Assembly (NCBI GenBank): GCA_051362555.1
Contig: CM120641.1
Span: forward strand, 24,930,401 to 24,994,400
Length of the DNA: 64,000 bases
DNA from: Lingula anatina
Taxonomy: Eukaryota > Animalia > Brachiopoda
Reading direction: 5' to 3'
The position numbers were made by a program, and so were the translations under genes. The notes under the pieces are model-generated. The model saw only the letters and a list, made by a program, of their open reading frames with translations, was not told the origin of the DNA and ran no database searches. This document shows positions 44,401 to 47,400 of the stretch, piece by piece; the first letter of the stretch is position 1, and each line of letters opens with the position of its first letter.

Positions 44401-47400
44401 GGAGGCTCATCAATGTGCTGGTGCTAGGGATTGGTTTTATGTTTATATTTTCTGCTTTTCAAACATGTTCCATGGTAGAGGTGAGGAATTAAATAGGCAT
44501 TGTTTTCAAAAACGTACAGAGGGATTTCGTTTACTTTAATCTTCCTAATTTTTGTTGTTAGTCTCACTCTGTAACCGAGACAGAAAGTACCGAAAGTTGT
44601 ATCCCCTGTCCCAGCAGCTGCAGGTGTCTCAGTTTTACCTGACATGTAAGGCCGAAAACGGAGGCAGCTTTTCTTTAAAAAGATCATTTGTCTGGTAGTT
44701 ATACATGGATTGTTAATTTAATCATTCTACAGACGGGTTTTATCTAAATATTTTCATACCGTCTAATTTTCGGCTCTACTCAAGAGCCTTCGTTAGGACA
44801 AACTGGTCATGCGCTGATCTTGTATTCATCGACCAATTATCCTATGAATGTCCCCTTTGGCCTCCTATGCCCAAGCGGTCAACATAGTAGAGTGCATTCC
44901 CAGAGATTTAGATTGATCCATCCGTATCGACGTAACTCCCTGGGGGTTCACGCTAAATTACTGTCAGTCGAGCACACACCATAGATATAATTACCCCCTT
45001 ACAACTTTTAGTAAGCGGGACAGACATTTAAGCCGGCTAAGCTGACAGAAATCTAGTGAGACTCCCCACAGGGATAGATCAATTTAAAATCTGTGGCAAT
45101 GGGGCCACAGATGTGGGCCAGCTGGTACAGTAGTGCCTCTGATCCCCATTGAAGTCCCAGTTCAGAGAGGCAATGTTCATGACAAATGGATTTCTAAATG
45201 CCAAAAGATTTAAGTACATAAAAGATTATTTCCTGCCTGGAACCAAACTCTGCATAATCATTCTGGCCAATGCTACCTCCATTAAACATGATTCTGAGCA
45301 GTAGATTGCTTCGTAGGTTAAAAAATTGCGCCTCATTATTTCACATACCTTACACATTCACAAGTTCTTTTTTTTTCTTTTTGTTTTGTTTTCTTTACTG
45401 GGTTTAACTTTCATGGCAACATAACTGGTAGACAAGCAGATTAATCTTTCCTTACTGATAGCTCTGTTGACAGGAAACTGGTTTTAATTTTTGTGCTAGC
45501 TAGAATATATATGTTTATACTGGAATATACTAGTATATCTCACTCTGGGTAGTTATTAGCTGAATGCCCCCCCCCCTCAATCTTTGAAATTGAAAAATAA
45601 ATAAACTGGTATTGTGCATTCAGGCCTGTTTTGCAGTTGGTGTGGTGATTTTCTTTTAATTTTGACAAAATTGAAACAATTGAGAAAAGGAAAACATTAT
45701 TTTTGACTAATTTGCCAAACTGAACTTTCTTCCACAATTAGCAGAACCTCTTCTGTCTTACTCTTAGCATGAAATGTATGGCTATATAGGAAACATGTAT
45801 GTTTATGATATGATAATCTTATCAGATTCAAAAGTCAATTGCAATTGCAGTCGTTAACCCAATATAAAATGACGTTATCTTTATTGTGTGTTTGAAAGTT
45901 TATATACATAGCGTCACTGTGAACATTTGTATTTAGGTTAAAAAAGGTCCTGTGGAAACCAGGTCAGATACCAATATCACCTGTGCATCTACGTATAATT
46001 CACCAGTAACATGTTCCAAGATTTGACACTACACTTGTTGTGTGCATAAATAGGTTAAATAATGAAAGCATTTAAAAAAATTCTTACATTGAAAATATTA
46101 TTTTTGAAAGATTGAATCCTCTTTTTCTTATGTAAAATAACTCATTTCCAGCAAACTGTCATTACTGATGCACGGGACGCACCAAATAGCACATTCACAG
46201 GGAATGGTTACACCAGGTTTGTATAGTTATACCCTAAATGATGTAATTAATGGAAGTTTCGACAAATATAGAGCTATCTCAGTATATGACATACTAGTAT
46301 TGCAGCCTCTGAAAGATTATATAAAGGTATTACTTGGTTCAAGTGGCAGCAGAGTTTCTTGTCAACTCTGAAATTCAGAATGTTGTAACAAAGTAGGAGG
46401 TAATATGTTTGTTGCTTGAAATGAGGTTTCATTTTTATTTTAACAGAAAGTCAATTTTATTTATTGTAAAATTTTATTATTATTTTTCTTTGTAGTCTTG
46501 CAATTATATACATCTTCTCCTCATTGTTCAACTGGGTAGCTCCAGCCATTGTGAATTTCCTCACACCCAAATGGTCACTGGTTGTGTCAGGGTTTACGTA
46601 TTTGTAAGATTCATTATTTTTATCCTGTATCATCCTTTCACCTGTTGCAAACCCTCTCCTTACACGCCTTAACCTTACTTAGCTTAAAGACATCACTTCT
46701 GTTTTCCAGTCTAGCTACAATCTATGTAGTGTTTGCTGCTGCTAACTGGATAGCGCCCTCAGTGGTCGCTCTCTGTGGACCAAAATGGTCCATGGTGCTT
46801 GGAGGTTTTTTATATCTGTAAGTTCTGTACATATGGCTTTTGTAACAAATTCTGCCTCTGCTGAAACATTGTTCTAAAATGCAGCATGAACAAAAATATG
46901 TTTTGAAGTTTTGTGTGTGTGTGTCTGAGTGTGTGTGAGGAGGAAGGAAAGTGTAAGAGCATACTATAACTTTACAAGCAGTTGATAAACTTTTCCAAAC
47001 CTGTTCCACACACGCTGCCTTGATATCCATTTTTCTTAAGCTAATTTGGAAAGTTAAAATATTTAAATCTTATTTAAAACCACTTAAGTTTAATTTATTT
47101 AAAACAACACTTGAAAAAATTAATAAGATATTATTAGTGTGAATTACCTCTAAAAATTAAGTGCTGTAATATTTTGCAGCTTTTAAAGCTGAGACTTAGT
47201 GCCTGTTTGGGTTTTGTTGAACATTAATCATACACGCTCATATTTTCATTCTAGTTTGTTCATAGCATCTTTCTTATATCCAATGACATGGGCTCTGTAC
47301 GTTGGATCAGTGTTAGTAGGCATTGGGGCTGCAGGTAAAATCATAAAAGATCTCATGTCTTATAGATTTTGTGGTCGTTAAATTTTTTCCAGTGACAGTG

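What the first reader, a model, noticed from the sequence alone, without database searches (positions are those of the whole stretch)
46496..46817. Tandemly duplicated, probably mutually exclusive exon 3 in MFSD11
Seen: two 108-nt exons in the same phase with intact AG/GT, 106 nt apart. They encode [36 protein letters not shown] and [36 protein letters not shown]. Key residues are kept although the DNA has diverged strongly, indicating selection on both. One exon gives a normal ~448-aa protein. Inference: two isoforms with alternative TM2-TM3 hairpins. TM2 lines the cavity in MFS folds, and 3a replaces the G of GPK with T, so substrate or gating may differ. I know of no description of this for MFSD11, an orphan transporter.
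Basis: partly seen in the sequence, partly recalled or inferred. Interest (0 to 1): 0.8.

Follow-up and report, generated by a model that had tools for sequence, protein, structure and literature searches.

The report
Swappable exon pair in brachiopod MFSD11
In the lamp shell Lingula, the gene for the unexplained membrane transporter MFSD11 carries two old copies of one exon, RNA reads show each spliced in on its own, and the more changed copy would likely give a transporter that opens and closes differently; databases already list both forms, and this kind of exon swap is well known.

Summary
Confirmed. Exons 3a (46496-46603) and 3b (46710-46817) lie in the MFSD11 gene of Lingula anatina. Reads from 8 RNA runs join exon 2 to either copy and either copy to exon 4 (3a>4: 28 reads, 3b>4: 44). 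No 3a>3b or 2>4 joint is listed in the four runs whose table was complete (threshold 3 reads). Use differs between samples: 0 of 21 exon-4 joints come from 3a in one study, 27 of 42 in another, genetically distinct one. RefSeq already models both forms (XP_013399248.1, XP_013399249.1). The duplication is old (synonymous sites saturated, dN 0.46) and was seen in no other species checked. 3b is family-typical; 3a scores below all 119 homologues and changes five near-invariant sites, including the TM2-TM3 glycine. Both forms fold alike in AlphaFold. Nonsense-mediated decay cannot enforce exclusion; a candidate competing RNA helix that would loop out 3b was found but is untested. Other animals show separate isoform swaps in MFSD11. 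A different function is inferred, more likely gating than substrate. New member of a known kind.

The parts
44391..44480 (+). MFSD11 exon 1, coding part
   Evidence: Joint 44480>46152 in reads; matches RefSeq protein
46152..46216 (+). Exon 2, upstream shared exon
   Evidence: Joined to 3a and to 3b in reads
46496..46603 (+). Exon 3a, divergent copy; residues 52-88 (most of TM2, the turn, first two thirds of TM3)
   Evidence: 2>3a 13 reads; 3a>4 28 reads; XP_013399249.1; helix limits from model
46604..46709 (+). 106-nt intron between the copies; branch-point-like A at 46613, 46622, 46640, 46662, 46672, 46677; other AGs 27 and 20 nt before its end
   Evidence: Motif scan; no joint across it listed
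46655..46671 (+). Candidate selector S1; predicted to pair with element D and loop out exon 3b
   Evidence: 13 contiguous base pairs, -19.5 kcal/mol; duplex -24.9; prediction only
46710..46817 (+). Exon 3b, family-typical copy
   Evidence: 2>3b 36 reads, 3b>4 44 reads (summed in 69); XP_013399248.1
46926..46943 (+). Candidate docking element D, GU/GA-rich, at the end of a GT repeat
   Evidence: Best partner of S1, and S1 its best partner, within 46217-47254; prediction only
47001..47016 (+). Candidate competitor S2 for D (local hairpin)
   Evidence: Duplex -21.9; wins in the full-length fold
47228..47240 (+). Candidate competitor S3 for D, just before the exon 4 acceptor
   Evidence: Duplex -20.4
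47255..47334 (+). Exon 4, downstream shared exon
   Evidence: Joints from 3a and from 3b
47738..55201 (+). Rest of the gene: exons 47738-47834, 48231-48413, optional 48791-48829, 49916-49971, 50204-50269, 53600-53722, 53920-54097, 54367-54430, 54757-54828, 55037-55201 (stop)
   Evidence: All borders AG/GT; translation equals RefSeq proteins bar one residue; reads cover only the first two of these

Best explanation
Exons 3a and 3b are an old tandem duplicate in Lingula MFSD11, each spliced on its own between exons 2 and 4, which gives two predicted 12-helix transporters that likely differ in gating at the TM2-TM3 corner. Shown: both copies are used, in ratios that differ between samples; 3b keeps the family pattern and 3a has changed five near-invariant sites while keeping the invariant Y, N, P and Y. 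Inferred (about 0.55): the 3a changes repack TM2 and remove the turn glycine, which alters the cytoplasmic gate and not the central site. Inferred (about 0.35): the choice is set by a GU-rich intron element after 3b that either pairs back with the intron before 3b, looping 3b out and covering its branch region so that 3a is used, or pairs downstream and frees 3b; what keeps 3a out in that state is not explained and probably needs a repressor protein.
For: full joint table for X8, X9, X6, X2: 2>3a 8,3,2,0; 3a>4 11,9,1,0; 2>3b 8,3,0,6; 3b>4 6,3,4,12; no 3a>3b or 2>4 row. (X1, X4, X7, X5): 3a>4 0,0,7,0; 3b>4 9,4,6,0. Study P1 0:21 against study P3 27:15, Fisher p 2.5e-7. RefSeq isoform pair. pS 0.78 (saturated), dN 0.46; flanking introns at chance identity; 2 of 2 read variants in each copy synonymous. 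Profile score 3a 48.9, below all 119 homologues (mean 89.6); 3b 92.0; V59F, F60S, S69A found in 0 of 119, G75T in 3, M80L in 4. W78 plus F85 shared by both copies and by 0 of 119 others, as expected of a lineage-own duplication. Both models pLDDT about 90, pTM 0.89; the only helix-assignment difference is the break at residue 75, present with G and absent with T. S1-D helix matched or beaten by 1 of 284 and 9 of 1179 control windows; probability 0.63-1.0 in 14 of 16 partial folds.
Against: The tool lists a joint only from 3 reads at 2 starts, so up to 2 reads of 3a>3b per run could be hidden; depth is low. One search hid 5 joint rows, and run X5 shows no depth on either copy while flanking exons have some, so skipping of both is not excluded there. 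Tissue and genetic lineage are confounded: P3 reads differ from the window by a few percent and sample labels are coded. No other brachiopod or phoronid was among the named hits, so conservation of 3a beyond Lingula is untested. Two synonymous variants in 3a have p about 0.07 under neutrality. 3a is faster than 3b against 7 of 8 outgroups, significantly in 3, which fits relaxed constraint too. The AlphaFold alignments are almost all 3b-like, so a good 3a model proves little. The S1-D helix falls to 0.01 in the two folds that run to exon 4 and in the whole-region fold; it was the best of 10 region pairs, involves low-complexity sequence, and has no covariation test. T at this site occurs in three unnamed homologues, so it is tolerated.
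Confidence: 0.6

Rival explanations
1. True mutually exclusive pair, but 3a is a tolerated, drifting spare: it yields a weaker or equivalent transporter, and the sample differences reflect lineage or splicing noise.
For: 3a is the lowest-scoring of 121 segments and has a long branch, 1.01 against 0.27; absent from X1 and X2; seen in no other species.
Against: Frame, splice sites, hydrophobicity and all four invariant residues kept while synonymous sites saturated; major form in three runs and present in two genetic backgrounds and in RefSeq.
Confidence: 0.25
2. Exclusion is steric: a branch point close to the 3a donor in the 106-nt intron stops 3a being joined to 3b, and proteins binding the GU repeat set the ratio; the RNA helix is chance.
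For: Branch-like A at 10, 19 and 37 nt from the donor, followed by pyrimidine-rich sequence, inside the under-50-nt criterion of PMC5740500 (passages). This also explains the state that the helix model leaves open.
Against: Better-placed candidates lie 59-74 nt from the donor, and two other AGs lie 27 and 20 nt before the acceptor, which a distant branch point would tend to use (general knowledge); no such joint is listed.
Confidence: 0.3
3. The copies are independent cassette exons and can be included together or both skipped.
For: Both such forms are open frames, 484 and 412 aa; X5 has no depth on either copy and hid 5 rows.
Against: No such joints in the complete table; joints into 3a do not exceed joints from 3a to exon 4 (13 and 21).
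Confidence: 0.05

Closest known systems
Tandem-duplicate mutually exclusive exons in transporters: SLC25A3, SLC39A14 (named in PMC5740500, passages) and metazoan MRP genes (PMC6071210, introduction)
   Same: Homologous exons of equal length and phase, one included per mRNA, swapping a membrane segment; independent origin in separate lineages.
   Different: Different family; substrate unknown; so far seen only in Lingula; one copy breaks family-wide conservation.
RefSeq L. anatina MFSD11 isoforms XP_013399248.1 (3b) and XP_013399249.1 (3a)
   Same: The same two proteins, bar I/M at residue 422.
   Different: Automatic models only; a second annotated locus (XP_013389579.1, XP_013389580.1) lists only 3b forms.
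Competing RNA pairing in human ATE1 exons 7a/7b (PMC7797038, abstract and one section) and downstream docking sites in 14-3-3zeta, Mhc, MRP1 (PMC6071210, introduction)
   Same: One central element with partners upstream and downstream; pairing loops out one exon.
   Different: There conserved and, for ATE1, proven by compensatory mutation; here predicted from one sequence, and the like elements sit before 3b and exon 4, not before 3a and 3b.
UNC93B1 (PDB 7c76, 7c77), nearest solved structure
   Same: MFS fold, TM-score 0.72-0.73; best sequence match covers the exon 3 segment and keeps the G of GPK.
   Different: 14% identity; solved as a partner of TLR3, not as a transporter with substrate.

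Membership tests
Homologous mutually exclusive exons | Tandem, homologous, same length and phase | tested here: met
   108 and 108 nt, 17 of 35 residues identical
Homologous mutually exclusive exons | Each joined to the same upstream and downstream exon | tested here: met
   All four joints seen
Homologous mutually exclusive exons | Not joined to each other | tested here: met
   No 3a>3b row in 4 of 4 runs with a full table, threshold 3 reads; 4 more runs had 5 rows hidden
Homologous mutually exclusive exons | Not both skipped | tested here: inconclusive
   No 2>4 row; X5 has no depth on either copy and rows were hidden
MFSD11 (UNC-93 family, MFS fold) | UNC-93 domain, MFSD11 best hits, MFS fold | tested here: met
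   PF05978 390-394 bits; named hits nearly all MFSD11; fold matches
MFSD11 (UNC-93 family, MFS fold) | Transport of a solute | not testable with these tools
   Called an orphan in PMC8621210 (passages)
Exclusion by nonsense-mediated decay | Double inclusion shifts frame or makes a stop | tested here: not met
   Open 484-aa frame
Exclusion by U2/U12 incompatibility | One intron with a U12-type donor | tested here: not met
   Donors GTTTGT, GTAAGA, GTAAGT; U12 consensus recalled
Exclusion by steric interference | Branch point under 50 nt from the upstream donor | tested here: inconclusive
   Three candidates under 50 nt, three over; real branch point unmapped
Docking site / selector RNA switch | One element complementary to competing partners around the exons | tested here: met
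   D pairs with S1, S2, S3 at -24.9, -21.9, -20.4; prediction
Docking site / selector RNA switch | Conservation with compensatory changes; rescue by double mutation | not testable with these tools
   No related genomic sequence could be fetched

The most novel reading that the evidence does not exclude
MFSD11 is a hot spot for convergent exon duplication: Lingula (exon 3, TM2-TM3), amphioxus (loop 1), a nemertean and a priapulid (last exon) each gained a second version of a different part. In Lingula an RNA switch built on a GU repeat picks a TM2-TM3 module that has lost the gate glycine, giving a tissue-specific transporter with different gating and a natural two-allele test for finding what this orphan family does.
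Probability: 0.2. Interest if true: 0.62.

Novelty: new member of a known kind. Interest (0 to 1): 0.38.

Why it matters
MFSD11 has no known substrate. Two natural forms that differ only in 19 residues of TM2-TM3, one of them breaking family-wide conservation, give a ready comparison for transport and localisation assays. The case also adds a brachiopod example of mutually exclusive splicing with a short, testable candidate RNA switch. The general phenomenon is well known and the pair seems confined to one lineage, which limits its reach.

Tried and rejected
No whole genome is held, so relatives' introns and the second RefSeq locus were not examined. Searches for a 3a orthologue: one hit, the Lingula protein itself, among 21 candidates; none among 3 short candidates; one 86-aa unnamed fragment at 54% identity that keeps G and looks like an ordinary MFSD11. 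These blanks are weak evidence. Isoform sets of 20 clusters from other animals: 26 pairs compared, none swaps exon 3. The doubled segment in Orbicella P0036 is an identical repeat that includes exon-2 sequence, likely a gene-model artefact. A tree of 33 segments of 36 columns was unresolved and does not date the duplication. Homology of S1 and S2 as duplicated selectors: local alignment matched or beaten by 16 of 300 controls, not accepted. An intron 2 / exon 3b helix: 23 of 446 controls as strong, not accepted. No Rfam match in 44300-48450. One search used wrong borders for three late exons; corrected. Two look-ups of earlier findings returned nothing. No supplements were read; MetazExp holds Lingula splicing calls that may include this event (PMC8728262, passages).

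Full report
Observation. The window holds a complete MFSD11 gene on the + strand, 44391-55201. Between exon 2 (46152-46216) and exon 4 (47255-47334) lie two 108-nt exons, 46496-46603 (3a) and 46710-46817 (3b), each with AG and GT borders and separated by 106 nt. They share 17 of 35 residues and 59 of 108 bases. A profile built from this segment of 119 homologues finds these two copies and nothing else in the window. A search with 3a returned one protein, named MFSD11 isoform X2 of the brachiopod Lingula anatina. Its cluster has five members: at one locus X1 carries 3b and X2 carries 3a, both 461 aa, and X3 is a 448-aa 3b form lacking a 39-nt exon; a second locus lists two 3b forms. The window's exons translate to these proteins with one I/M difference. 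So the pair is real and already present in automatic annotation.

Splicing. Nine RNA runs of the same species label were listed and eight were laid. In one search the joint table was complete: for X8, X9, X6 and X2, exon 2 joins 3a in 8, 3, 2, 0 reads and 3b in 8, 3, 0, 6; 3a joins exon 4 in 11, 9, 1, 0 and 3b in 6, 3, 4, 12. No 3a>3b or 2>4 joint is listed; the tool needs 3 reads from 2 starts, so up to 2 per run could be unseen. In one search (X1, X4, X7, X5) 3a>4 has 0, 0, 7, 0 and 3b>4 has 9, 4, 6, 0; five rows were hidden, and X5 has no depth on either copy, so it says nothing or hides skipping. Study P1 (X1, X2) has no depth on 3a at all; study P3 (X7-X9) uses 3a in 27 of 42 exon-4 joints (p 2.5e-7, reads treated as independent). 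P3 reads differ from the window by a few percent, so lineage and tissue are confounded; but X6, close to the window's sequence, and the RefSeq model also have 3a. X6 shows some unspliced intron around 3b.

Age and selection. Between the copies pS is 0.78, beyond saturation, and dN is 0.46; 11 of 17 identical residues use different codons; the flanking introns match only at chance level. The four differences that P3 reads show inside the copies are all synonymous (2 in each; p about 0.07 for 3a alone). The copies did not evolve alike. 3b scores 92.0 on the family profile, above 72 of 119 homologues; 3a scores 48.9, below all 119. 3a keeps the invariant Y57, N64, P68 and Y87 but has V59F, F60S, S69A (each 0 of 119), G75T (3 of 119) and M80L (4 of 119). 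Both copies have W78 and F85, a pair found in none of 119 others, which points to a duplication in the Lingula line; the segment tree itself is unresolved. None of 26 isoform or allele pairs from 20 clusters of other animals swaps this exon, and three searches found no 3a orthologue. No other brachiopod or phoronid appeared among named hits, so the range within the phylum is open.

Protein. Both 461-aa forms fold as MFS transporters with pLDDT about 90; the nearest solved structure is UNC93B1. The exon covers residues 52-88: most of TM2, the turn and two thirds of TM3. The only difference in helix assignment is a break at residue 75 with glycine and none with threonine. The alignments are nearly all 3b-like, so this is weak. 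A review (PMC8154325, passages) names TM1, 4, 7 and 10 as the cavity helices and places the A-motif, tied to inter-bundle contacts, between TM2 and TM3. That G75 corresponds to the last glycine of this motif is my reading from recall; the motif's acidic residue is absent in both copies. F60S with V59F and A63F looks like a repacking of one face of TM2 (inference). I therefore favour a change in gating or stability over a change in substrate. Nothing here tests it.

How exclusion may work. Including both copies or neither keeps the frame open (484 and 412 aa), so decay cannot enforce the pattern, and all donors look U2-type. Branch-like sites lie 10-37 nt and 59-74 nt from the 3a donor; PMC5740500 (passages) uses under 50 nt as the steric limit. 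The later sites are better placed, so steric exclusion is possible but not favoured. Testing all 10 pairs of regions for long helices gave one outlier: 13 contiguous pairs between 46655-46667 in the intron before 3b and 46931-46943 in the intron after it (0 of 60 shuffles; 1 of 284 and 9 of 1179 real control windows as strong). It would loop out 3b and cover its branch region. The same element D has two downstream partners of similar strength. All three partners contain ACACGC, which occurs 10 times on the + strand of the window and 3 times within these 571 nt; this was noticed after the fact. The helix dominates 14 of 16 folds of growing transcripts and is replaced by the local hairpin in the two that reach exon 4 and in the whole-region fold, which fits a switch but also shows how model-dependent it is. 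The layout resembles ATE1 (PMC7797038, abstract and one section) and downstream docking sites (PMC6071210, abstract and introduction). It does not explain why 3a is left out when 3b is free. I put it at about one in three.

Comparison and novelty. Homologous mutually exclusive exons are common and known in transporters. Searches for MFSD11 with 'mutually exclusive' (4 papers, cancer splicing surveys), MFSD11 alone (40 of 116 listed), MFSD11 with 'isoform' (15 of 36 listed), Lingula with 'mutually exclusive exons' (1, a database) and brachiopod with exon duplication (1, on FoxP) showed no description of this pair; these were seen as listings and abstract starts, and the library lacks most subscription papers. 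The fly MFSD11 paper has no mention of isoforms or splicing (PMC8621210, term search). A side result is that other lineages have their own MFSD11 swaps: loop 1 in four annotated amphioxus sets and the last exon in Tubulanus and Priapulus, judged from proteins only.

Verdict. A real, expressed, sample-dependent mutually exclusive pair from an old duplication; a new member of a known kind; already annotated by machine; function and mechanism inferred. Interest 0.38.

Noticed in passing
Proteins P0164/P0037, P0040/P0169, P0166/P0167, P0168/P0170 (Branchiostoma): Equal-length isoform pairs differ by 6 residues in loop 1 (exon 2 region) in 4 of 4 annotated sets: probably a separate, conserved mutually exclusive pair in amphioxus MFSD11.
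   Followed up: partly
Proteins P0128/P0031 (Tubulanus polymorphus), P0171/P0097 (Priapulus caudatus): Two homologous alternative C-termini covering the last helices, suggesting duplicated last exons. Tubulanus also has three MFSD11 clusters.
   Followed up: partly
window 48791-48829: Optional 39-nt exon in the central loop (461 against 448 aa in RefSeq), with similar copies at 48710-48741 and 49292-49323; intron 6 has further internal repeats. Optional loop pieces of 7-17 aa also occur in Littorina, Physella, Pomacea and Porites.
   Followed up: partly
window 44750-45110: Repeat in intron 1 that draws hundreds of RNA reads from other copies on both strands; no Rfam match.
   Followed up: no
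window 46152-46216 and reads of runs X7-X9: Study P3 reads differ from the window by a few percent, with a replaced stretch at the start of exon 2: a distinct population or cryptic species under the same label.
   Followed up: no
Proteins P0079, P0089, P0100 (unnamed): A small clade of MFSD11 homologues also has T in place of the TM2-TM3 glycine, on an otherwise 3b-like background.
   Followed up: partly
window 63161-63310: Open stretch that resembles the start of USO1/p115 (name recalled; no Pfam hit).
   Followed up: no
RefSeq XP_013389579.1, XP_013389580.1: A second near-identical MFSD11 locus in the RefSeq assembly (2 residues different), possibly an unmerged allele; only 3b forms are listed.
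   Followed up: no
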